In this document: positions 40,398-55,908 of the stretch, piece by piece | Position numbering within the stretch: position 1 is the first letter of the stretch | Layout of the letters: each line of letters starts with the position of its first letter | Assembly (NCBI GenBank): GCA_048938105.1 | Contig: JBHLMN010000009.1 | Coordinates: forward strand, 64,001 to 128,000 | Reading direction: 5' to 3' | Length of the DNA stretch: 64,000 bases | Source: Promethearchaeota archaeon | Lineage (GTDB): Archaea; Asgardarchaeota; Heimdallarchaeia; Hodarchaeales; Hodarchaeaceae | Position numbers and translations under genes: made by a program | Notes under the pieces: model-generated | Database searches by the model: none | What the model was told of the DNA's origin: nothing | Seen by the model: the letters and a program-made list of their open reading frames with translations, nothing else

Positions 40398-42143
40398 ATG
40401 GAAGAACAGATATGGCATAAATTTAAATGGCCTAAGACAGTAAAAAAATCCTTAGAACCCTATCCCAATGAACTCCTTCACAAAATACTTGAAGACACTG
40501 CGGCAAAAAGTGGTGATTTACCGTATTTAAAATTTATGGGAACAACAACGACCTTTGCAGAAACAAATACGATGGCAAATCAGGTTGCAAATTATCTTAT
40601 AAGCAAAGGAATAAAAAAAGGGGATAAAGTGGCAATATTCTTACCTAATACACCGCATTACCCAATAGTCTTTTTCGGCATCTTGAAAGCAGGAGCTACA
40701 TGTGTTACATGCAATCCCACATATACTGCGGATGAGTTAAACTATCAACTTAAGGATTCAGAAGCAGTCATGGTCTTTGCTTTTGATCATGAGAGATTTG
40801 GTCCTTCAACTTACAAAGCGATTAAAGGAACGCAAGTTAAACACGTGGTCATTTGCCAGACAAAGGATTTTCTTCCTAAGTTAAAAGCGATAATTGGAGG
40901 ATTACTAGGAAAAGTACCCAAGAGTCCTTTTTATGAAGAAGCAATCACCTCCTTTTTCTCCGAAATTCTGGTTTATGAGCCAATAAAGCCAAATGTGGAA
41001 GTAAACCCCGATGAAGACTTGGCTATGCTTATTTATACTGGTGGCACCACAGGCTTACCTAAAGGAGTAATGTTATCGCATAAGAATATTTATTCAAACG
41101 TTTTACAAATCAATGAATATGTTAGGATAGATCCAGAGGAGACTGGGGAATCCCAACCTTTTCGTTATGGAAAAGAAGTCTTCATTGGTGCTCTTCCATG
41201 GTATCATTCGTATGGACTTACTCTTACAATGATTGGAGGAGCCTATATCGCTGCGACGGTAATTCCTATCCCTGATCCTCGTGCCGGTAAACCTCCGCTT
41301 TCAGTAATCCTAGAAGCGATTAATGACTACAGAGGAACTGTCCTCCATGCTGTCCCAACGATTTATTCAGCAATTGTTAACCATCCGAATGTTGAAAAAT
41401 ACGATCTCACTTCAATTATCGGTTGTGGTTCAGGAGCAGCTCCGTTGGCACCAGAGTTAGCCAAAGATTTTGAAAGAATAACTGGGAGCTGGATCGTAGA
41501 GGGATATGGACTTTCAGAAACATCACCAACGACGCATATGAATCCAACAAACAAAATTCAAAGGAAGTTTGGTACAGTTGGACTCCCTATGCCTGATACT
41601 TATGTTAAAATTGTGGATTTAGAAACAGGATTAAAAGAATTACCTCAAGGGGAAGATGGAGAAATAGCTGTCTCTGGTCCGCAAGTTATGAAAGGATATT
41701 GGAAGAAAAAAGATGCAACAGCAGAAGTATTTCGAGAAATTGATGGTCGAAATTACTTCCTGACTGGAGATATTGGATTTCTTGATGAAGAGGGATTCAC
41801 TGTCATAACAGATCGGAAAAAGGATATGATTATTGTTGGTGGACTGAAAGCTTACCCTAGAGAAATCGAAGATATCTTATATGAAAACCCAAAGGTCAAG
41901 CTTGCTGCTGTTATCGGCCTACCAGATGAAGAGAAACCAGGTAATGAATATGTTGCTGCTTATCTTGTATTGAAGGAAGGGGAAACAGCAACAGAAAATG
42001 AAATTATTGATTGGTGTCGAGAACGAATGGCGGGGTATAAACGCCCCAGAAAAGTTGAGTTCCGTGAAGATCTGCCTTTAAGCACAGTTGGAAAGGTCTT
42101 ACGTCGTGTGATTAAAGAAGAAGAATTAGTAGGTAAGGAATAG
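40398..42143 (+). CDS. Long-chain fatty acid--CoA ligase
   Basis: YTGGTTGLPKG, EGYGLSETSP, TGDIG, DRKKDMI, GKVLRR. Confidence 0.95.
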   Translation: MEEQIWHKFKWPKTVKKSLEPYPNELLHKILEDTAAKSGDLPYLKFMGTTTTFAETNTMANQVANYLISKGIKKGDKVAIFLPNTPHYPIVFFGILKAGATCVTCNPTYTADELNYQLKDSEAVMVFAFDHERFGPSTYKAIKGTQVKHVVICQTKDFLPKLKAIIGGLLGKVPKSPFYEEAITSFFSEILVYEPIKPNVEVNPDEDLAMLIYTGGTTGLPKGVMLSHKNIYSNVLQINEYVRIDPEETGESQPFRYGKEVFIGALPWYHSYGLTLTMIGGAYIAATVIPIPDPRAGKPPLSVILEAINDYRGTVLHAVPTIYSAIVNHPNVEKYDLTSIIGCGSGAAPLAPELAKDFERITGSWIVEGYGLSETSPTTHMNPTNKIQRKFGTVGLPMPDTYVKIVDLETGLKELPQGEDGEIAVSGPQVMKGYWKKKDATAEVFREIDGRNYFLTGDIGFLDEEGFTVITDRKKDMIIVGGLKAYPREIEDILYENPKVKLAAVIGLPDEEKPGNEYVAAYLVLKEGETATENEIIDWCRERMAGYKRPRKVEFREDLPLSTVGKVLRRVIKEEELVGKE

Positions 42144-45788: not shown

Positions 45789-46613
45789 CTATTTTCCAGT
45801 TACAATTAGTCTTAAGAAAGCGCCTAAATCTTTAACTTTAGGTAGAAAAGCTGGTGTACTTTTTACATAGTCCTCGAACGTTGAACCATACCTACGAATT
45901 AGCTCTTTGTCCTCCGAACGAGCAATGAAATAATAACATATAGTCGCTAATATAGCTAGAACCAGTGCAATTATATTCTGCGACAATAAGGCGAGGCCAA
46001 AACACATGTAAACTCCTTCAGCATAATGAGGATGCCGTATATACTTAAATACTCCTCCTTGCAACTTTTTAGCCTTTTCAGGATAAATAATATAAAGAAA
46101 AAGTTCTGTATCTAATGTAAATCCGCCATTAACAGCGTCACGACCCATTAATGGATACAATCCGATTAATAGAATTGCTAAAGGAAAAGCTATCTGCCAG
46201 GGGATAATAGTTTGGTAAAGGAGGTTATTCTGGTATGCGGGGTAAAGCATTGGAATGAAAGTGTTGTTCTCTACCATGATAATCAATATCATTGTCATTG
46301 TATTTGGTGGTATCACAGGAATAAGGTAGTAGTAGAAAAATTTCGTATAAGCGCGGTCTTCATACTTATTCCGATAATTTTCACGGATTTTTTCCGCATT
46401 TCGCGAAATCCGTGACATAGTCCAATATGCAAGCATGTAAATGACAATTGCAATTAGTAATGGGGCCCACCAATCAATCATATTCAGAAAATGAACCAAA
46501 AGAAGCATTGTTATTGAAGAAAAAATTATGATAAAAATAGTCTTAACACTAGTAATCTCAGGCATATATTCTTTGAGTAAATCAAGGCCAGATTTTTCTG
46601 TACTAAGTTCCAA
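45789..46613 (-). CDS. ICMT/PEMT family membrane methyltransferase
   Basis: GVFKYIRHPHY, EDKELIRRYG..FEDYVKSTPAFLP. Confidence 0.88.
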   Translation of the reverse strand: MELSTEKSGLDLLKEYMPEITSVKTIFIIIFSSITMLLLVHFLNMIDWWAPLLIAIVIYMLAYWTMSRISRNAEKIRENYRNKYEDRAYTKFFYYYLIPVIPPNTMTMILIIMVENNTFIPMLYPAYQNNLLYQTIIPWQIAFPLAILLIGLYPLMGRDAVNGGFTLDTELFLYIIYPEKAKKLQGGVFKYIRHPHYAEGVYMCFGLALLSQNIIALVLAILATICYYFIARSEDKELIRRYGSTFEDYVKSTPAFLPKVKDLGAFLRLIVTGK

Positions 46614-46767: not shown

Positions 46768-47379
46768 ATGACATTTTTATCCATTTTTACTGTCCTAGGA
46801 TTGTTAATAAGTTCTGTGGGGTTTCCTACATTATTTATCATTTCTTTTCTAATTACTCGACTTCGACTAGGAGAAATCCCACCCCATAGACATGATCTCA
46901 CCATTATTATAATAGCAACTCTTTGTATCATTTGGGTTATCCTCTGCTTTTATTGTGTCTTAGATCCAACAATTATCACATTTTTCGGTGAATTGTCACT
47001 GCTAAAAAATATATGGATTGAAATTGTTGCTCTACTATTTTGTTTATCAGGATTCTTGATTCTTATGGCTGCTTTTTTTGAAATGGGTAATTCTTTCAGA
47101 ATGGGTATTCCACCAGAAGAAGAAACACCAGCAGCTTTAATTACAACTGGGATTTTCAAGTATATCCGAAACCCTGGTTTTTTGGGAGTGAATTTGGCTG
47201 TTCTTGGAACTTTTTTTCTGGTACCATCAATTCTATTTTGTATTCTAGTAGTCTTATCTTTGATCTCCTTTCATATTCAGATAAAAAAGGAGGAAGTATA
47301 CCTCCAACGAATGCACGGAGACCTATACAGACGATATATTCAACAGACTGGACGATATTTTCCAAAACTTTTCAAATGA
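46768..47379 (+). CDS. ICMT family membrane methyltransferase
   Basis: MGNSFRMGI, LITTGIFKYIRNPGF, EEVYL..HG..YRRY..TGRYFP. Confidence 0.9.
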   Translation: MTFLSIFTVLGLLISSVGFPTLFIISFLITRLRLGEIPPHRHDLTIIIIATLCIIWVILCFYCVLDPTIITFFGELSLLKNIWIEIVALLFCLSGFLILMAAFFEMGNSFRMGIPPEEETPAALITTGIFKYIRNPGFLGVNLAVLGTFFLVPSILFCILVVLSLISFHIQIKKEEVYLQRMHGDLYRRYIQQTGRYFPKLFK

Positions 47380-48638: not shown

Positions 48639-49274
48639 TTATAGTGTTATTACTCTACCTACACCCCCTTTAATATATTTTAAAGGGTATAAAGCTTTTA
48701 TTTTTAACTTATGTTTAGTACAATGAGCAGGACAAATATATTGTAATTCTTTGATTAAGTCAAATCTATTGAATCCATGTAATCCTCCAATGAGTGCCAT
48801 TATATTCCCAAATTGTGATACTACATTTAGAATAGCATTAACTCCTGGATGTGAACATCCAACAATTACAACTATTCCCTTCTCTGTATTAATCATGAGA
48901 GATTGTTCAATACCTTTGAGTTCACCTGTGGAAAAAATATTTTCAGAAATTTTAAGTATACCTTTAACTTTAACTATTTCTATTCCTTTCATATGAATTG
49001 AATATGAATCTGGAACATATACTGGAACTTGATGCATTCTAAGAATGTCTCTAAGTCCACCTGTATGATCCCCATGTGCATGTGAGATGAAAATCAAATC
49101 AATTGCGATCAGATCTATATTGAGCTTTTTCAGGTTCTCAAGAAGCATCGTGCCATTACTGCCAGTATCAAAAAGGATTTTCTTCCCATATGCCTCTACA
49201 AGACACGAGAAACCCCAAGATGCTCTCAGTCCTTCTGTCCACAAGTCATTATCAAATACGATTGTTATTCTCAT
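48639..49274 (-). CDS. MBL-fold metallo-hydrolase (COG1237 / MJ0301-like)
   Basis: WGFSCLVE, ILFDTG, SHAHGDHTGG, EQSL, GCSHPG, GGLH, PAHCT. Confidence 0.9.
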   Translation of the reverse strand: MRITIVFDNDLWTEGLRASWGFSCLVEAYGKKILFDTGSNGTMLLENLKKLNIDLIAIDLIFISHAHGDHTGGLRDILRMHQVPVYVPDSYSIHMKGIEIVKVKGILKISENIFSTGELKGIEQSLMINTEKGIVVIVGCSHPGVNAILNVVSQFGNIMALIGGLHGFNRFDLIKELQYICPAHCTKHKLKIKALYPLKYIKGGVGRVITL

Positions 49275-49425: not shown

Positions 49426-49953
49426 TCAACTTGTATTACTCTTAAAAAATAATTTTAGGAGTGAAGATGGATTGGGAATCCATCTTGGAACCTCTTTTTG
49501 ATATTCAAAATACTCATTCCCAAAAATTCGTTCCAATTCTTTTTCTTCAAAAATAGCGATTTTATTATAAAGAATGAACGTTATAATCCATGGAATGACA
49601 GAAATCACCGACAATGATAGGAATATAAGCCCGAGATATAATACGAGTGTACCGAAATACATAGGGTGACGAACTACTGCAAATACATCATCTGATATTA
49701 ACCTAGAAGGTTGGTTTACACCTCCAAATAGCCTATTATGTGATGTCATACCAAATCTTACAGCTAGGATCAAAAAGATTAGAAATAATAATATTTGAAT
49801 AATAAGAAGGTTACTTATTAGAATATCATTAGGTAGTTGAACAAGAATTAAATCTAATAACCATATAATCAAAAATGCCAAACCACAACCAGCTTGAATT
49901 AGATGTGATTGGGGATGCTCTTTTCCAATCCCATGTTGATGAGAGTTTTGCAA
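49426..49953 (-). CDS. ICMT family membrane methyltransferase (third copy)
   Basis: VRHPMYFG, EEKELERIFG.EY.EYQKEVPRWIP. Confidence 0.9.
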   Translation of the reverse strand: MQNSHQHGIGKEHPQSHLIQAGCGLAFLIIWLLDLILVQLPNDILISNLLIIQILLFLIFLILAVRFGMTSHNRLFGGVNQPSRLISDDVFAVVRHPMYFGTLVLYLGLIFLSLSVISVIPWIITFILYNKIAIFEEKELERIFGNEYFEYQKEVPRWIPNPSSLLKLFFKSNTS

Positions 49954-50097: not shown

Positions 50098-50490
50098 TTA
50101 ATATTTCATGTTTTGTTGGACTTTTTCAGCCATTTTTTCAGCTTCGGCCTTTGAACCGCAAATAATCGCTTTATACCCATGTTTCGAGTTGGAAACTTGC
50201 TGCAAATCCGTTACTGAAGCATCTGAAACTATTCTAATAGTTGCACCCATTTTTGTTTCTACTGCTGTTCCCATTGTTTTACTTAGAATCTCAAGATTAT
50301 CTTCTGACGCAGGTACATAACCACTAACATCGGAGATTGCGAGGTAACCAGGTTTAAGCTTATTTGCTTCACGTCGAAGGTCATCAGGCAGAGTTAAGAT
50401 GTCTTCCCTAGTAAGATATCCTCTTAATGTCGTATAAAGCCGATTTTTCTCTATATTAGCTTTGACAGAGACTTCTTTTTCCTTAACCAT
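50098..50490 (-). CDS. Hypothetical protein, possibly STAS/SEC14-like ligand-binding fold
   Basis: KNRLYTTLRGYL..LKPGYLAISDVSGYVP..IRIV; likely start ATG at 50490. Confidence 0.65.
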   Translation of the reverse strand: MVKEKEVSVKANIEKNRLYTTLRGYLTREDILTLPDDLRREANKLKPGYLAISDVSGYVPASEDNLEILSKTMGTAVETKMGATIRIVSDASVTDLQQVSNSKHGYKAIICGSKAEAEKMAEKVQQNMKY

Positions 50491-50527
50491 CTTTATTCCA
50501 TCTCTTTTATCAAGGTTAAACAAACAT

Positions 50528-51685
50528 TTAAACTGTTAAAGAAGATAAATCTTTAGGAAAATCGGTTAATATTTTATAACTATCCTCAGTAACAAGAACA
50601 GTGTCTGAGTGCCGCATTCCACCAAATTCTGGAATATAGATCCCTGGCTCTACTGAAAAAATGTGACCTGGTTCTAAAATTGTTGGATCTTCTTCTTTTA
50701 AAGAAGGTCGTTCGTGAAGTTCCAATCCGATTCCATGTCCTGAGCGATGGATAAAGTATTTCCCAAATCCAGCTTTAGTAATGATTCCCCTAGCAATTCT
50801 ATCGAGCTCAGAAACCTTAGTTCCAGGTTTAATAGCATTAATTATTGCTTGTTGCGCTGTACACATTGTTTCAAACATCTTTTCCTGTTTCTGCGATGGT
50901 TTCCCTATAATGAATGTTCTTTCACATTCTCCATGATATCCACTTAATGATACGACACGTGTGTGAATTACAGAATCTCCCTCTTTGAGCTTTCGAGATG
51001 TGGAAAAAACATGAGGAAGGGCACTTCTAACTGGACCAGAAGGGCTCATGTTAACGGTAAAACGTAATACAGATTCTGGAAAGTCAATACTACTTCGTTC
51101 TAAAATGGCATTGTTTCCCATAGTATCTAATTGAATTTCTGTTAGTCCTTCTGTTGCTTTTTCAATAGTTCTAGAGACTCCATAAGCAGCTAGTTCTGCA
51201 GCTCGTGTGACTGCTTCAATTTCATTCCTAGATTTAACCATTCTTAACTGCTCAATTATTTCAGAAGTATCTGAAAAGGTGGCTTTGGGAAAAATAGTCT
51301 TTAGTAAGGATATGGAAGAAAGAGGACAATATTTCTCTTCAATTCCGATATTTCTTTTGTGAAGTCCAAGAGTTTCTACTACTTGTTTAGTTATTTGAAA
51401 GGGATCAGTTTCTTTCTTTTCCTCATCTTTCTCTAAAGGGAATTCAACATAGGAACGAATGTCATTTATTACTGATTCTTTTTTCGCATGTTCTTCATCA
51501 AGAGCAGGGACAATTAATGTGGGTTCTTGCTCCAGAGGGAAGATAGTAATTATGGGTCTAGAATAAGTCAAAGCAAAAAATGTGCTTAAATAGACGGTAT
51601 GGGGAGGATGCCAAGTTATGAGAACGCTGATATCCTTTTTTTGCATTTCTCCTTTGATTTTATTCCATCGTTTCATATAATCCAA
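50528..51685 (-). CDS. M24 family (creatinase/prolidase-fold) hydrolase
   Basis: Creatinase-N domain, LRMVKS..E, HRSGHGIG, VEPGIY, RHSDT. Confidence 0.9.
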   Translation of the reverse strand: MDYMKRWNKIKGEMQKKDISVLITWHPPHTVYLSTFFALTYSRPIITIFPLEQEPTLIVPALDEEHAKKESVINDIRSYVEFPLEKDEEKKETDPFQITKQVVETLGLHKRNIGIEEKYCPLSSISLLKTIFPKATFSDTSEIIEQLRMVKSRNEIEAVTRAAELAAYGVSRTIEKATEGLTEIQLDTMGNNAILERSSIDFPESVLRFTVNMSPSGPVRSALPHVFSTSRKLKEGDSVIHTRVVSLSGYHGECERTFIIGKPSQKQEKMFETMCTAQQAIINAIKPGTKVSELDRIARGIITKAGFGKYFIHRSGHGIGLELHERPSLKEEDPTILEPGHIFSVEPGIYIPEFGGMRHSDTVLVTEDSYKILTDFPKDLSSLTV

Positions 51686-51741
51686 TTTGAAATCATCTTT
51701 ATTTGAGTATATTACTGGACTAAAGGCTTTTGAAAATAAAT

Positions 51742-52467
51742 TCAGGGTAGAATGTCAATATCTAGATATTTTTTGTCATGGGGAGCAATTATTATATCTG
51801 CAATGTCTTGAATTTTCCTTACAGAGTCATATGCCTGAAGTGAATCAATGTGTATTCCTGGAGCTATCGCTACCACTCCCATATCTTTCATTTGTTGCGG
51901 GGGGTCGTAATTTTCTTGGATTGAACACAAACCGCTGATACAAACCTTTCCTTTATCAGTTTCAACTAGAACGCTTTGATTACCAGGTGTATGCCCAGGC
52001 GTCTTGATAATTTTAACTCCTGGGGCGATCTCTTTATCACCATCAACAACCTCTAGATTTGTTTTCTCAGGGGGAATAATAAACCACCCTGTTTGTGTTG
52101 GATGGGGATTTTTAGCATATTCTAATTCATCTTTCTGAACATACACTGTTGCGTTCTTGTATTTAGCAATATCCGCTGCATGGTCAGTGTGAAGATGTGT
52201 TAATATTAATATATCAATATCATCCACGGATAAACCGACTTTTTCTAAAGCTTCCTCTTGTGTCTGGCCATCAATCCCTGGAAAGCCAGTACTTCTAATT
52301 AATTCACCTGAACAGCCAGTATCAACTAAAATATTTTTATCAGCACCTTTTATTAACCAAGAATAAACACCTAAGGTAATCTCCGTACCGTGACCCATTA
52401 AATAAGTCATAAATCCCATATCAATAGGAGATTCTGTAGCAATTGGTAGTGGAATAATATTCATCAT
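51742..52467 (-). CDS. N-acyl-homoserine-lactonase-like MBL hydrolase
   Basis: ILVDTG, THLHTDH, TPGHTPG, APHD; GGAG followed by ATG at 52467. Confidence 0.9.
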   Translation of the reverse strand: MMNIIPLPIATESPIDMGFMTYLMGHGTEITLGVYSWLIKGADKNILVDTGCSGELIRSTGFPGIDGQTQEEALEKVGLSVDDIDILILTHLHTDHAADIAKYKNATVYVQKDELEYAKNPHPTQTGWFIIPPEKTNLEVVDGDKEIAPGVKIIKTPGHTPGNQSVLVETDKGKVCISGLCSIQENYDPPQQMKDMGVVAIAPGIHIDSLQAYDSVRKIQDIADIIIAPHDKKYLDIDILP

Positions 52468-52650
52468 TATAACTCCTTCTTTATTGGATAGAGAACATCT
52501 TTTAAACAAATCAATTCTCTAATAAACATTTCTTAGTTTATTGTTTCTGTGTAATTCTTTATAATGATTAAAATTTCATTGTGAGAATTCCCGTATAAGA
52601 TGATAAAAGCGTATTCATTTAGTTAAGCCATATTTTTCAGGAGATTAATA

Positions 52651-53436
52651 ATGATAGAGATAAAAAAACTGAAAACAGTTGAAGAATTCAAACAAACCTT
52701 CGAAATTCAAAAGAACGCTTGGGGGATTAGTGATTTAGAAATAGACCCTCATTTTTTAATGAGTAGAGTTCAAAAATATGGTGGCTTACTTCAAGGACTT
52801 TTTATAGATACAAAATGTGTTGGTTTCACTTATGGCATTCTTGGAAAATGGCAGGGAGAGATCTTTTTTTTCTCCTATATGGCAGCAGTGATGAGGGAAT
52901 ACCAAGGGCAAGGATTTGGATTCCTATTAAAAAAAGCTCAAAGAGAAGAAGTCCTAAAGATGGATTATAATATCATTCGGTGGAATTTTGACCCACTAGA
53001 ATCCTTAAATGCTTATTTTAACTTTCATAGACTGGGAGTAATCAGCTCAGAATATGAAAGAAATATTTATGGAGTGGGGGATAGAGGACTTGACAAAGGT
53101 CTCCCAACCGACAGATTACTTGTCACCTGGAATTTAACCTCTGAACGAGTGATCAAAAAAATGGAAAAAAAAGAAGCAAAGATTATAGAAATGATTCCTA
53201 CCGCAAAAATAGGGGAGTTTAAAAACAAAATTGCTTATATCGAAATCCCTAGAGATATCCGTTCTTTGAAAAAGAATGATTTAAATCAAGCATATGAGTG
53301 GAGAGCGAAGACATGTGAACAGTTTGAGTTCGCTTTTAGAAGCGGATTTGTTGCTGAGGAAATCGTTTTTTCAGAGGATCAAAAGAGAATCTTCTATAAA
53401 TTAACCAAGAAGGATGATGATGTTGAATCGGATTAA
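52651..53436 (+). CDS. GNAT acyltransferase (COG3375-like, candidate D-amino acid N-succinyltransferase)
   Basis: YQGQGFGFLLKKAQR, WNFDPL..NAYFNF..LG, GLPTDRL; overlaps the NSAR gene. Confidence 0.88.
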   Translation: MIEIKKLKTVEEFKQTFEIQKNAWGISDLEIDPHFLMSRVQKYGGLLQGLFIDTKCVGFTYGILGKWQGEIFFFSYMAAVMREYQGQGFGFLLKKAQREEVLKMDYNIIRWNFDPLESLNAYFNFHRLGVISSEYERNIYGVGDRGLDKGLPTDRLLVTWNLTSERVIKKMEKKEAKIIEMIPTAKIGEFKNKIAYIEIPRDIRSLKKNDLNQAYEWRAKTCEQFEFAFRSGFVAEEIVFSEDQKRIFYKLTKKDDDVESD

Positions 53437-54547
53437 TCATATCGATTCTATAGAATTATTCATTGTTAAGCTTCCTCTTGTGGAACCTTTTGAGACTAGC
53501 TTTGCAATTGAGACCCACAAGGAAGCTCTTCTATTGAGAATAAGCTCTGAAGGAATAGATGGCTGGGGTGAATGCGTGGCTTCTCCAGATCCCTATTTCA
53601 GTAGTGAAACTAATGAAACTGCCCTTCATATAATTCGAACTTATTTATTATCATTAATTACAAAGATGAAGAATTTCTCACTTCAAGAGGTTCTAGAAGC
53701 GTTCGAGAGGATCAGGGGCCATAATATGGCGAAAGCAACTGTAGAAAATGCTCTTCTTGATCTTCTAGCTAGAAAACGAGGTCTCCCCCTGTATGAGCTC
53801 ATTGGCGGAGAAAAAAAAAGGATTATGTCAGGTATTAGTATTGGGATCAAACAAGACATAAATGATCTTCTAGAGACCATTAAAAGAGCATTGAGTAAAA
53901 ACTATCACAGAATCAAGATTAAAATAAAAAAAGGAATGGAAATTGAACCCTTAACTAGAGTACGGGAGAATTTCCCAGATATCAAAATCATGGTAGACGC
54001 CAATGCTGATTATTCCATTAAAGATATCAGAATCCTCAAACAACTCGATAATTTTGATCTAATGATGATCGAACAACCGTTAGAATATAATGACCTCTAT
54101 TTTCATTCATTAGTTCAGAAAGAATTACAAACACCGATTTGCCTTGATGAATCAATTGAGAATCTCAACGATGCTAAAACTGCTATTAATTTGGGAAGCT
54201 GTCAATTCATTAATATTAAACAAGGACGTGTAGGGGGTATTTTGAATGCAAAAGTCATTCAAGAATATTGCAGTAAAAATGGTATAAAAGTCTGGTCTGG
54301 AGGTATGCTAGAAACAGGTATCGGAAGAGCTTTTAATATCCATTTACAAACGCTTCCTGGCTTTTTATTGCCAGGTGATACTTCTGAAACCTCCCGCTAT
54401 TTCCAAAAGGATATTGTTGAACCCTCAGTAAAGCTTCGAGCAGATGGGTTTATTGATATACCTGAAGGTGAGGGGATAGGGGTACGAGTCATCCCAGACA
54501 GATTGACGCGCTTCACAGCCTTTTCTGAAAAGATAGAATGCAAGTAA
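53414..54547 (+). CDS. menC: o-succinylbenzoate synthase / N-succinylamino-acid racemase (NSAR/OSBS subfamily)
   Basis: PFETSF, GWGEC, KIKIK, DAN, EQPL, LDES, NIKQGRVGG, GGMLETGIGRA, LPGDTS. Confidence 0.92.
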   Translation: MMMLNRINHIDSIELFIVKLPLVEPFETSFAIETHKEALLLRISSEGIDGWGECVASPDPYFSSETNETALHIIRTYLLSLITKMKNFSLQEVLEAFERIRGHNMAKATVENALLDLLARKRGLPLYELIGGEKKRIMSGISIGIKQDINDLLETIKRALSKNYHRIKIKIKKGMEIEPLTRVRENFPDIKIMVDANADYSIKDIRILKQLDNFDLMMIEQPLEYNDLYFHSLVQKELQTPICLDESIENLNDAKTAINLGSCQFINIKQGRVGGILNAKVIQEYCSKNGIKVWSGGMLETGIGRAFNIHLQTLPGFLLPGDTSETSRYFQKDIVEPSVKLRADGFIDIPEGEGIGVRVIPDRLTRFTAFSEKIECK

Positions 54548-54549
54548 CT

Positions 54550-55908
54550 CTATGTATCAAGATATTTTATCCCCGCTTTACCCCAAGAATCTAATGCTTG
54601 TTGTAATTCTACGTATTCGTCCTCGTGGTCATCTAAGTAATCTTCAAGATCCTCAGCTGCTTCATCTAAGTGAGTCATACCAATATCAATGACCTGCCGA
54701 AATGCTTTTGCTCCTGCCCGGGTACCTTTTGGATGCGAATGAATTCCAACACCTGCTCCAATCATAATATCGTTACCTAAATCCTTCATGATACGTAAAG
54801 CAATTCCTGGTGTTACTCCTCCTGATGGCATAGGTAATACTGGTTTTAACGAACCGAAGGGATAACGGAGTGCTTTTGCACAGGCAAGATATTTATCCCG
54901 AATAAAAGGTGCTTTGCTATATGCACTAGGGTAGACTAGTGCATCAAGCCCCGCCAACCGAGCGAGCTTTCCCATAATTAGGAATGAAGACATACCAGAC
55001 ATTGAAGACTCATAGTACACTCCAGCAAAATCCATATGCCCTAAAATAGGAACTTTAATACTCTCATCAGCAGCTAACTCCCGTACAACAGGAAGGCCTG
55101 CAGTTAGATAATTAACCATGAGTCCATTAGTCCCAAAATCAAGCGCTTTTTGGGCATTTTCTAAAATTTTCTGAGGTTCAGCTGTTATATTCACCATATA
55201 GATGGTATCTTCTCCTGTTTCATCTTTAGCTTTATCTTTCATCTCCATGTAGGTAGTAACCCTATCCTCTAATGGTAAATACTTAATATCACCAGCTGTA
55301 CTTTCATCGTCTTTGATGAAGTCAGCGCCGCCCATCGCTGCTTCATAAAAAAGGGCTTTCCCATCCTCCAAGGTGTAGGCATGATCAATATTTGTTAAGA
55401 AAGGCCGTTTTGGCACAGCAAGTTGTTTTCTAATGCCTTCAATCCCAAATTTCGGTCCTTTGAACTCAGATAGAAAACGTTGGGGGAAAATAACGTCTAG
55501 AAGTTTGACTTTGCCACCCATACTAATGTTACCCAGTAGAGTAGTCAATAGTAATGGAAATTGGGTGTCTAATCCTTCAAGAGGGTACGCGACTTGAATA
55601 ATATATTGTCGTTCTTTCACTTCGTTTGGAATGCCTATTTCATAAGGAGGAATTTCATACACACCAATGACCTTACCTGAGAACTTTCGAAGGATTTCAC
55701 GGGGGTCACTATGAACTGGATAATAAGAGCCAACAGTTTGTTCTTGAATAACTACTTTTCCCATATACCAGGGGTCAAGAGTACTACTAAATGCAGTATA
55801 GTATATTCCAATCACATAATCCTCGGAATTTATAGACTCTTGTAGTCCCTCAGGGTAATATCCCCATTTACTATCAGCATAACTATCAAATTTCGATTTC
55901 TTTACCAT
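54550..55908 (-). CDS. RuBisCO-like protein (form IV), divergent
   Basis: EQTVG, GNISMGGK, GPKFGIEGIR, GGADFIKDDE, ILGH, PMPSGG, GIHSHPKG..AGAKAFRQ. Confidence 0.92.
   Translation of the reverse strand: MVKKSKFDSYADSKWGYYPEGLQESINSEDYVIGIYYTAFSSTLDPWYMGKVVIQEQTVGSYYPVHSDPREILRKFSGKVIGVYEIPPYEIGIPNEVKERQYIIQVAYPLEGLDTQFPLLLTTLLGNISMGGKVKLLDVIFPQRFLSEFKGPKFGIEGIRKQLAVPKRPFLTNIDHAYTLEDGKALFYEAAMGGADFIKDDESTAGDIKYLPLEDRVTTYMEMKDKAKDETGEDTIYMVNITAEPQKILENAQKALDFGTNGLMVNYLTAGLPVVRELAADESIKVPILGHMDFAGVYYESSMSGMSSFLIMGKLARLAGLDALVYPSAYSKAPFIRDKYLACAKALRYPFGSLKPVLPMPSGGVTPGIALRIMKDLGNDIMIGAGVGIHSHPKGTRAGAKAFRQVIDIGMTHLDEAAEDLEDYLDDHEDEYVELQQALDSWGKAGIKYLDT

What the first reader, a model, noticed from the sequence alone, without database searches (positions are those of the whole stretch)
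50098..54547. Candidate archaeal D-amino-acid acylation-racemisation pathway with a non-canonical deacylation step
Seen: GNAT (52651) overlaps an NSAR/OSBS enolase-superfamily gene (53414). Across a ~180-bp divergent promoter sit a lactonase-like MBL hydrolase, an atypical M24 hydrolase and a small unknown protein. No men genes and no M20 peptidase occur in the window. Established: in Geobacillus, a GNAT succinyltransferase, NSAR and an M20 desuccinylase convert D- to L-amino acids. Inference: this archaeon may scavenge D-amino acids, possibly from bacterial cell-wall debris, using the MBL or M24 enzyme as the deacylase. That would be an undescribed variant.
Basis: partly seen in the sequence, partly recalled or inferred. 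Interest (0 to 1): 0.72.

Follow-up and report, generated by a model that had tools for sequence, protein, structure and literature searches.

The report
Archaeal GNAT–racemase pair, unrelated hydrolase neighbours
This Asgard archaeon carries the widespread two-gene core (acyltransferase plus N-succinylamino-acid racemase) of the known route that turns D-amino acids into L-amino acids, but the lactonase-like and M24 hydrolases next door are a recent, lineage-specific insertion rather than the route's missing last enzyme.

Summary
A GNAT-fold acyltransferase (52651-53436) overlaps an NSAR/OSBS enolase (53414-54547) by 23 nt. Across about 183 bp lie a lactonase-like MBL hydrolase, an M24 protein with three of five metal ligands replaced, and a small protein that I find has a STAS fold. 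The 99%-complete genome has no menD, menB or isochorismate synthase, so racemase, not OSBS, is the expected role.

GNAT-NSAR is a conserved module. It is paired in 43 of 51 loci across Asgard archaea and at least five bacterial groups, and adjacent in 37 of 46 archaeal genomes that hold both genes. An M20 gene is fused to the operon in 14 bacterial loci. No orthologue of that M20 exists here, so the deacylase is open.

The MBL/M24 proposal fails the synteny test. Only 2 of 7 GNAT-bearing genomes in the genus have these genes, and no other locus does. The MBL-STAS pair occurs without GNAT-NSAR. The M24 subfamily sits beside solute transporters in Bacillaceae.

Better candidates lie on other contigs: a D-aminoacylase homologue and an ArgE/DapE-type M20. 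Each is directly upstream of GNAT in one relative.

This is a new member of a known kind. The scan already holds 47 notes on such sets in other genomes.

The parts
52651..53436 (+). GNAT-fold N-acyltransferase of 261 aa, the predicted acyl(succinyl)-CoA:amino acid N-acyltransferase. It has a C-terminal domain of about 100 aa that is conserved in the family.
   Evidence: Pfam GNAT, E=0.06. (214 homologues, 56-94% identical). (invariant Q85, G90). (Foldseek top hits are all GNATs). (adjacent to NSAR in 43 of 51 loci).
53414..54547 (+). N-succinylamino-acid racemase / OSBS-subfamily enolase of 377 aa. It is translationally coupled to the GNAT gene by a 23-nt overlap.
   Evidence: TIGR01928, 346 bits. 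(1sja, 3.9e-91). The catalytic set K168/K170, D195, E220, D245, K269 and second-shell R272 are all present.
52468..52650 (.). Divergent intergenic region between the MBL gene and the GNAT gene. GGAG-type ribosome-binding sites sit before both starts.
   Evidence: sequence. (homologues start at the MMNII methionine).
51742..52509 (-). MBL-fold hydrolase, lactonase-like, about 240 aa from the likely start at 52467. It is a neighbour and is not assigned to the pathway. Together with the STAS protein it forms its own conserved pair.
   Evidence: Lactamase_B. (AiiA model, 105 bits, below the 375 cut-off). (AiiA structures, about 1e-20). (HLHTDH, TPGH, APHD conserved). (72-73% identical copies directly upstream of the STAS gene in L077-L081, with no GNAT-NSAR).
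50528..51685 (-). M24-fold protein (Creatinase_N + Peptidase_M24) with a remodelled metal site. It is a lineage-specific neighbour, inserted between the MBL and STAS genes.
   Evidence: (1pv9, 2.9e-51). (the signature IH[TS]R / ExE / GHG / EPG / RHSDT is conserved in the subfamily). (orthologue in 2 of 21 genomes of the genus).
50098..50523 (-). Small STAS/SpoIIAA-fold protein, about 130 aa from M12. It is the partner of the MBL gene.
   Evidence: family; homologues start at M12. (pLDDT 88.5). (top hits are anti-sigma-factor antagonists and the DUF3478 SpoIIAA-like fold).

Best explanation
GNAT (52651-53436) and NSAR (53414-54547) form a translationally coupled two-gene operon. It is the conserved core of the known irreversible D-to-L amino-acid conversion route.

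Proposed mechanism:
1. The GNAT N-acylates a free D-amino acid with an acyl-CoA. By analogy the donor is succinyl-CoA. This step is inferred.
2. The enolase-superfamily racemase interconverts N-acyl-D- and N-acyl-L-amino acids through a metal-stabilised enolate, using the two lysines K170 and K269. The residues are shown; the activity is inferred.
3. An L-specific deacylase releases the L-amino acid.

In this genome the deacylase is not encoded beside the pair. The divergently transcribed MBL hydrolase, remodelled M24 protein and STAS protein are a separate, recently juxtaposed block and are probably not part of the pathway.

The deacylase is most likely one of two enzymes encoded elsewhere. 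One is the ArgE/DapE-type M20 on contig C27 (165309-166469). The other is the D-aminoacylase-family amidohydrolase on contig C64 (28371-29966). Each lies directly upstream of GNAT-NSAR in one relative of the same genus.
For: NSAR identity and intact active site.

GNAT fold and CoA motif.

The pair is conserved. It is paired in 43 of 51 loci (42 of them in the canonical GNAT-then-NSAR order) spanning Asgard, Thermodesulfobacteriota, Aminicenantes, Clostridia, Acidobacteriota and Bacillaceae. In a 200-genome sample of the archaeal phylum, 46 genomes have both genes and 37 have them adjacent on the same strand.

The same GNAT family sits in M20-GNAT-NSAR operons. This holds for 13 bacterial loci plus Natribacillus, which has an M20D amidohydrolase. 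It matches the published Geobacillus kaustophilus set of GNAT succinyltransferase, NSAR and M20 L-desuccinylase, as described in bioRxiv 10.1101/2022.03.03.481873.

An OSBS role is unlikely. In the 99%-complete genome, menD reaches 86.8 bits against a cut-off of 244, menB reaches 133.8 against 342.7, and isochorismate synthase has no match.

The MBL/M24/STAS block is separate.
- MBL and M24 orthologues occur in 2 of 21 genomes of the genus, against 7 of 21 for GNAT.
- Five GNAT-bearing relatives have no orthologue anywhere in their genomes.
- The MBL-STAS pair occurs alone in five metagenome contigs.
- The block lies in a variable stretch of about 10 kb (42.2-52.6 kb). Relatives L010 and L013 lack this stretch; there the AMP-ligase, ApgM, GNAT, NSAR and RLP genes lie within one short block, with ApgM before GNAT in L010 and after NSAR in L013.

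Alternative deacylases.
- The gene directly upstream of GNAT in L027 is a D-aminoacylase homologue (1m7j, 1.6e-68). Its own-genome orthologue is 68% identical. Orthologues occur in 5 of 7 GNAT-positive and 2 of 14 GNAT-negative genomes of the genus.
- In L012 a 5'-truncated ArgE/DapE-type M20 lies directly upstream of GNAT. It is 85% identical to the own-genome C27 gene, which scores 217.7 bits on TIGR01910.
Against: No enzyme activity has been measured for any of these proteins.

The acyl donor (succinyl- or acetyl-CoA) and the stereochemistry are taken by analogy from proteins that are only about 30% (GNAT) and 44% (NSAR) identical in Bacillaceae.

The C27 M20 is also present in 8 of 14 GNAT-negative genomes of the genus. 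It probably has another primary role.

All characterised amino-acid-acting members of the D-aminoacylase family are D-specific (general knowledge; PMC12149444). As an L-deacylase this enzyme would therefore be unprecedented.

The MBL/M24 block is retained next to GNAT-NSAR in the sister genome (L009). A local functional link in this sub-lineage cannot be excluded.

Kin are not independent, so the co-occurrence counts are weak statistics.
Confidence: 0.72

Rival explanations
1. One reading: the MBL hydrolase or the remodelled M24 enzyme is the deacylase. This would complete a non-canonical D-to-L pathway encoded in a single divergon.
For: The two gene sets share one intergenic region of about 183 bp.

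No orthologue of the operon-type M20 exists in the genome.

The deacylase slot is evolutionarily plastic. Four different hydrolase types sit next to GNAT-NSAR in different lineages.

The arrangement is kept in the sister genome L009. Locus tags (ACFFC6_03570 and ACFFC6_03585) and matching contig lengths suggest it is kept in a few more contigs.

A distant M24 (26% identical) lies within 7 kb of the pair in two bacterial loci, L015 and L039.
Against: Five of the 7 GNAT-bearing genomes in the genus lack any orthologue of either hydrolase.

None of the 42 other paired loci or the 16 additional archaeal loci has them.

The MBL-STAS pair travels on its own.

The nearest characterised relatives of the MBL are lactonases, not amidases.

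The M24 subfamily has lost the dinuclear-site ligands. In Bacillaceae it is linked to BCCT, TctABC or peptide transporters, not to NSAR.

The M24 genes in L015 and L039 keep the canonical D/D/H/E/E ligands and belong to another subfamily.
Confidence: 0.1
2. The pair works with the D-aminoacylase-family amidohydrolase in the opposite direction, or in a different one. One possibility is that L-amino acids are N-acylated, racemised and released as D-amino acids. Another is that scavenged N-acyl-D-amino acids are processed. Either would be an amidohydrolase-superfamily variant of the route.
For: A D-aminoacylase homologue lies 34 bp upstream of GNAT on the same strand in relative L027.

Its orthologue is present here on C64.

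Orthologues occur in 5 of 7 GNAT-positive and 2 of 14 GNAT-negative genomes of the genus.

D-acylase/NSAR couples do produce D-amino acids in vitro (PMC12149444).
Against: Adjacency is seen in only one genome.

The enzyme is absent from five pair-only Desulfobacterales genomes and from the 16 other archaeal loci.

The stereospecificity of both the GNAT and the amidohydrolase is unknown.

Two GNAT-positive genomes have only a 39%-identical paralogue.
Confidence: 0.12
3. The enolase acts as o-succinylbenzoate synthase for menaquinone synthesis, and the GNAT is unrelated.
For: The protein passes the NCBIfam model named 'o-succinylbenzoate synthase' (TIGR01928). Many NSAR/OSBS-subfamily enzymes are bifunctional (PMC12006748).
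Against: menD, menB and isochorismate synthase are not found in a 99%-complete genome, although the controls matched.

The gene overlaps the GNAT gene, and this pairing is conserved across phyla.

The NSAR-associated second-shell arginine (R266 in Amycolatopsis, R272 here) is present.
Confidence: 0.03

Closest known systems
[quoted passage not shown] 2006, as cited in bioRxiv 10.1101/2022.03.03.481873 and PMC12006748)
   Same: A GNAT gene and an NSAR/OSBS-subfamily gene are co-transcribed. The racemase catalytic set is intact, including the R266 equivalent. No menaquinone pathway is present. The same GNAT family is found in M20-GNAT-NSAR operons of bacteria, including a Bacillaceae genome.
   Different: No M20 gene lies in or near the operon, and the genome has no orthologue of the operon-linked M20. 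The host is an Asgard archaeon. The GNAT is only about 30% identical to the Bacillaceae (Natribacillus) one. The acyl donor is untested.
Amycolatopsis sp. T-1-60 NSAR/OSBS (PDB 1sja) and Deinococcus/Thermus N-acylamino acid racemases (1r0m, 2zc8)
   Same: The closest solved structures score 3.9e-91 to 1.5e-87 over the full length. All metal ligands, both catalytic lysines and R266 are conserved.
   Different: The window protein is untested. Its genomic partners differ.
AiiA-type N-acyl-homoserine lactonases and 4-pyridoxolactonase (MBL fold)
   Same: The MBL neighbour has the HxHxDH motif and the later His motifs. It aligns best to AiiA structures.
   Different: Its scores are far below the family cut-offs (105 against 375 bits). 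It is conserved as a pair with a STAS-fold protein. At the position of the AiiA bridging Asp it has a Cys-containing CISGLC segment. Its substrate is unknown.
Creatinase / ectoine hydrolase (DoeA) branch of the M24 'pita-bread' fold, and Pyrococcus prolidase (1pv9)
   Same: It has the Creatinase_N + M24 architecture. Its best structural relative by sequence is prolidase (2.9e-51). Like creatinase, it has lost ligands of the dinuclear metal site.
   Different: It has a distinct conserved signature (IH[TS]R, ExE, RHSDT) and passes no equivalog cut-off. In Bacillaceae its neighbours are BCCT, TctABC or peptide transporters. Its activity is unknown.

Membership tests
NSAR/OSBS subfamily of the enolase superfamily (MLE subgroup) | Full-length match above the curated cut-off of the subfamily model | tested here: met
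   TIGR01928 scores 346.4 bits against a cut-off of 200.65. The best PDB hits are NSARs at about 1e-90.
NSAR/OSBS subfamily of the enolase superfamily (MLE subgroup) | KxK motif, second catalytic Lys, and D/E/D metal ligands (K161/K163, K263, D189, E214, D239 in Amycolatopsis numbering) | tested here: met
   K168/K170, K269, D195, E220 and D245 are present.
NSAR/OSBS subfamily of the enolase superfamily (MLE subgroup) | Second-shell Arg (R266) associated with NSAR activity | tested here: met
   R272 lies in the motif IKQGRVGG. Its role is described in bioRxiv 10.1101/2022.03.03.481873.
NSAR/OSBS subfamily of the enolase superfamily (MLE subgroup) | Racemisation of N-succinylamino acids in vitro | not testable with these tools
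   This needs an enzyme assay.
[quoted passage not shown] | GNAT acyltransferase gene co-transcribed with the NSAR gene | tested here: met
   The genes overlap by 23 nt. They are paired in 43 of 51 loci.
[quoted passage not shown] | M20 L-desuccinylase in the operon or an orthologue elsewhere | tested here: not met
   There is no M20 in the annotated part of the window. The best own-genome match to the operon-type M20 is 27-33% identical over part of the length, whereas true orthologues are 45-57% identical. Unrelated M20 paralogues do exist.
[quoted passage not shown] | No requirement for OSBS (no men pathway) | tested here: met
   menD, menB and menF are below cut-off or absent.
[quoted passage not shown] | Succinyl-CoA-dependent acylation specific for D-amino acids | not testable with these tools
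   This needs an enzyme assay.
GNAT superfamily | GNAT fold with the Q/R-x-x-G-x-G/A acyl-CoA-binding motif | tested here: met
   The Foldseek top hits are all GNATs. QGQGFG lies at residues 85-90, and Q85 and G90 are invariant in the family. The Pfam score itself is below the cut-off (14.1 against 20.7 bits). Model confidence is moderate (pLDDT 63).
Peptidase M24 (metal-dependent Xaa-Pro peptidases) | Five ligands of the dinuclear metal centre (D, D, H, E, E) | tested here: not met
   T242, E253, H317, E346 and S360 occupy these positions. The substitutions are conserved in the subfamily.
AiiA-type AHL lactonase | Score above the curated cut-off of the equivalog model | tested here: not met
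   NF045699 scores 105.4 bits against a cut-off of 375.

The most novel reading that the evidence does not exclude
Asgard archaea and Desulfobacterales carry GNAT-NSAR but have lost the operon M20 and hold no orthologue of it anywhere. In these lineages the last step may be done by a non-M20 enzyme. In this genus the candidate is the D-aminoacylase-family amidohydrolase, which is fused to the operon in one relative and co-occurs with it. That would be either a new class of L-desuccinylase or a natural L-to-D (D-amino-acid-producing) version of the pathway. The MBL or M24 neighbour filling this role is a less likely form of the same idea.
Probability: 0.15. Interest if true: 0.6.

Novelty: new member of a known kind. 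Interest (0 to 1): 0.35.

Why it matters
The natural role of NSAR enzymes is still argued mostly from genome context. This work shows that the GNAT-NSAR pair is common in Asgard archaea: about a quarter of the sampled genomes have it, and none of the 16 further Asgard loci fetched has an M20 beside it. The pair has also crossed between archaea and sediment bacteria. Together these results extend the known pathway to a new domain. They also show that the deacylase is its replaceable part.

For annotation, the practical lesson is not to read the divergent MBL and M24 genes as pathway members.

It would matter more if a non-M20 deacylase were shown, or a reversed pathway that makes D-amino acids. 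Archaea that feed on amino acids and peptides in sediments rich in D-amino acids are a plausible setting for either.

Tried and rejected
I could not fetch the contigs that hold P0129/P0009, P0128/P0008 and P0124/P0148. Their unk-M24-MBL-GNAT order is inferred only from locus tags and equal contig lengths.
- The GNAT has no match in Pfam or NCBIfam at normal thresholds. A sequence search of the PDB gave only one weak GNAT hit (E=0.1).
- The GNAT model has a low-confidence stretch at residues 107-175, although this is the most conserved segment. I therefore drew no active-site or substrate inference from it.
- I looked for one deacylase shared by all pair-only genomes and found none. The operon-type M20, the C27-type M20 and the D-aminoacylase homologue all lack orthologues in five Desulfobacterales genomes.
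- The direction of the archaea-bacteria transfer could not be settled. On the NSAR tree the genus forms one clade (99/95) inside a 38-row clade (100/99) that is otherwise bacterial. The sister of that clade is Asgard (families f3 and f5), and the tree is unrooted.
- I considered and rejected an OSBS/menaquinone role. I did not search for the futalosine pathway.
- The ApgM phosphoglycerate mutase and the AMP-forming ligase flank the pair in L010, L011 and L013. I considered them as pathway members and judged them local synteny only. The ligase recurs in one bacterial locus, L039.


Full report
**1. What is in the sequence**

The stretch 50098-54547 holds five ORFs.

On the + strand lie a 261-aa protein (52651-53436) and a 377-aa protein (53414-54547). 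The second start lies 23 nt inside the first gene, in another frame. The two are translationally coupled.

The 377-aa protein is an NSAR/OSBS-subfamily enolase.
- It scores 346 bits on TIGR01928, against a cut-off of 200.65.
- It scores 3.9e-91 against Amycolatopsis NSAR 1sja. All the top solved relatives are N-acylamino-acid racemases.
- In the alignment to 1sja every functional residue is kept. These are K168/K170 (KxK), D195, E220 and D245 (metal ligands), K269 (second base) and R272. R272 is the equivalent of the second-shell R266 tied to NSAR activity (role from bioRxiv 10.1101/2022.03.03.481873).

The 261-aa protein misses the Pfam thresholds (GNAT E=0.06). Other evidence still places it in the GNAT superfamily.
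- It has the Q-x-x-G-x-G CoA motif at residues 85-90, and that motif is invariant in its family.
- Its model has moderate confidence (pLDDT 63). Foldseek returns only GNAT acyltransferases for it, with 135 hits at E<=1e-3.
- Sources label its 214 homologues 'predicted GNAT superfamily acetyltransferase'.

On the - strand lie three genes.
- The first is an MBL-fold hydrolase (51742-52509). Its homologues start at the internal MMNII methionine, which leaves about 183 bp to the GNAT start.
- The second is an M24-fold protein (50528-51685).
- The third is a small ORF (50098-50523) whose homologues start at M12.

**2.

'Atypical M24' is right. Against Pyrococcus prolidase 1pv9, the five ligands D209/D220/H284/E313/E327 correspond to T242/E253/H317/E346/S360. 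The pattern IH[TS]R...ExE...GHG...EPG...RHSDT is conserved across a whole subfamily that reaches Bacillaceae. Canonical M24 proteins in the same alignment keep D/D/H/E/E.

'Lactonase-like MBL' is fair. AiiA is the best model and the best structure, but the score is far below the cut-off (105 against 375 bits). The HLHTDH, TPGH and APHD motifs are conserved.

The 'small unknown protein' folds with high confidence (pLDDT 88.5) into a STAS/SpoIIAA-like domain.

'No men genes' holds genome-wide. The genome is 5.85 Mb and 99% complete. menD reaches 86.8 bits against a cut-off of 244. menB reaches 133.8 against 342.7. Isochorismate synthase has no match at all. The control genomes matched in every case.

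'No M20' holds for the ORFs I annotated at 37.5-59.4 kb of the window. I did not annotate the rest of the window. The genome as a whole has 19 M20-family matches.

**3. GNAT-NSAR is a conserved module**

A scan of one genome per prokaryotic species with the GNAT family gave 51 loci.

In 43 of them the NSAR gene is paired with the GNAT gene, and in 42 it directly follows the GNAT gene on the same strand; in L013 a further gene lies downstream. Most of the rest end at a contig edge.

The hosts are Asgard archaea, Thermodesulfobacteriota/Desulfobacterales, Aminicenantes, Clostridia, Acidobacteriota, Limnocylindria and the Bacillaceae member Natribacillus.

In a 200-genome sample of the window's archaeal phylum:
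- 49 genomes have the GNAT and 48 have the NSAR;
- 46 have both;
- in 37 of these the two genes are under 1 kb apart on the same strand (counted by hand from the coordinates).

In 13 bacterial loci an M20 gene sits immediately upstream on the same strand. Natribacillus has an M20D amidohydrolase (TIGR01891, 284 bits) upstream and an ArgE-type M20 downstream.

This is the published Geobacillus architecture of GNAT succinyltransferase, NSAR and M20 L-desuccinylase. Assigning the window's pair to that pathway is therefore well founded by homology and context. No activity has been measured.

**4. Is a canonical M20 present elsewhere?**

The operon M20 co-evolves with its partners. It is 45-57% identical where the GNATs are 52-65% identical.

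The best match in the window's genome is 27-33% identical over part of the length. The same is true in three other Asgard and two Desulfobacterales genomes that carry only the pair.

So the operon-type M20 is missing, not merely unlinked.

On the NSAR tree, the genus forms one clade (99/95). It lies inside a 38-row clade (100/99) whose other branches are bacterial, and most of those carry the M20. The simplest reading is that the M20 was lost from the operon in this archaeal genus, and again in the Desulfobacterales crown.

The direction of the inter-domain transfer is unresolved. The sister of that clade is Asgard, and the tree is unrooted.

**5. Test of the MBL/M24 hypothesis by synteny and phyletic pattern**

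Among the 51 loci, the MBL, M24 and STAS genes lie beside the pair only in L009. That locus is a 94%-identical sister genome.

In the 21 genomes of the genus:
- the GNAT is in 7;
- the MBL is in 2;
- the M24 orthologue is in 2.

The five other GNAT-bearing relatives have nothing closer than 27-31% (MBL) or 31-40% (M24) anywhere in their genomes.

Sixteen further archaeal GNAT-NSAR loci have neither gene. They also have no M20 and no D-acylase.

Conversely, the MBL (72-73% identical) and the STAS protein (57-64%) are adjacent, with no M24 between them, in five metagenome contigs that have no GNAT-NSAR within 8 kb. They are a module of their own, and the M24 gene was inserted into it.

The atypical M24 subfamily gives no link to N-acyl amino acids either. 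In Bacillaceae it lies beside BCCT, TctABC or peptide-binding transporters. Together with the lost metal ligands, this suggests a creatinase- or ectoine-hydrolase-like enzyme acting on a small solute. This is inference.

Relatives L010 and L013 place the AMP-ligase, ApgM, GNAT, NSAR and RLP genes within one short block (ApgM lies before GNAT in L010 and L011, and after NSAR in L013). In the window the ligase is at 40398-42143. The stretch 42.2-52.6 kb (FeoB, three PEMT/ICMT-like genes, a CCG/Fe-S protein, a second MBL, and the STAS, M24 and MBL genes) is therefore a variable insert.

L011 keeps a 23-residue relic of the MBL N-terminus. This shows gain and loss at this spot.

I put the hypothesis at about 0.1.

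It is not zero, for three reasons. The block persists in the sister genome. Locus tags and equal contig lengths suggest it persists in two or three unfetched contigs.

**6. Better candidates for the last step**

In relative L027 the gene 34 bp upstream of GNAT, on the same strand, is a 539-aa homologue of Alcaligenes D-aminoacylase (1m7j, 1.6e-68).
- The window's genome has a 68%-identical orthologue on contig C64.
- Orthologues at 65% identity or more occur in 5 of 7 GNAT-positive and 2 of 14 GNAT-negative genomes of the genus. Kin are not independent, so this is only suggestive.

In relative L012 a 5'-truncated ArgE/DapE-type M20 lies directly upstream of GNAT.
- It is 85% identical to an intact 386-aa gene on contig C27 here (TIGR01910, 217.7 bits).
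- That gene is in all 7 GNAT-positive genomes, but also in 8 of 14 GNAT-negative ones. It probably has another main job.

Neither candidate has orthologues in the pair-only Desulfobacterales genomes.

The deacylase slot is therefore plastic. At least four hydrolase types occupy it in different lineages: a PRK07338-like M20, an M20D, an ArgE/DapE-type M20 and a D-aminoacylase-like amidohydrolase.

It points away from the MBL and M24 genes.

**7. Verdict**

The finding is the core of a known pathway in a new host group, with a neighbouring gene block that was over-read.

The scan already holds 47 notes on GNAT/NSAR/M20 sets in other genomes, including pair-only cases.

I class it as a new member of a known kind. 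Interest is moderate to low. The residual open question is which enzyme, if any, deacylates in the many lineages that carry only the pair.

Noticed in passing
window 54550-55908 (-): A RuBisCO-like protein lies convergent with the NSAR gene. Its best model is the DK-MTP-1-P enolase, at 310 bits against a cut-off of 409. It is 91-93% identical in four relatives (L009, L010, L011, L013), whereas the neighbouring GNAT and NSAR genes are only 70-78% identical in L010, L011 and L013. It is linked to the pair only in this genus, not in bacteria.
   Followed up: partly
window 50098-50523 and 51742-52509; L077:7139-8390, L078, L079, L080, L081:5914-7073: An MBL hydrolase and a STAS-fold protein form a conserved two-gene pair of unknown function. 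The pair is shared at 57-73% identity between this archaeon and metagenome contigs with unrelated neighbours.
   Followed up: partly
window 50528-51685; L145-L150: This is a coherent M24 subfamily in which three of the five metal ligands are replaced (T/S, E, H, E, S) and new conserved histidines appear (IH.., RH..). In Bacillaceae it lies next to BCCT, TctABC or peptide-SBP transporters. It may be a hydrolase for an unidentified solute.
   Followed up: partly
L157:3542-6490 and the same positions in L154, L156, L158, L159, L163-L165: In another Asgard family, the GNAT-NSAR pair is preceded on the same strand by a Ras-family small GTPase and two overlapping proteins of about 410-430 aa that have no Pfam match. 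This order is conserved in 8 loci.
   Followed up: no
window 45789-46613, 46768-47379, 49426-49953: Three PEMT/ICMT-like membrane methyltransferase paralogues lie within 4 kb in the variable insert. A second, shorter MBL-fold gene lies beside them at 48639-49274.
   Followed up: no
L012:3402-4088 (G142/G007 contig C213): The only copy of the ArgE/DapE-type M20 in this relative starts at residue 155 and lies directly upstream of GNAT. It is either a truncated gene or an assembly join.
   Followed up: partly
G000:C64:32643-34232 (L151:10643-12232, -): A 529-aa protein with a Cas12f1-like TNB domain (TnpB-like) lies about 2.7 kb from the D-aminoacylase homologue. A second amidohydrolase (332 aa) is directly adjacent to that homologue.
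   Followed up: no
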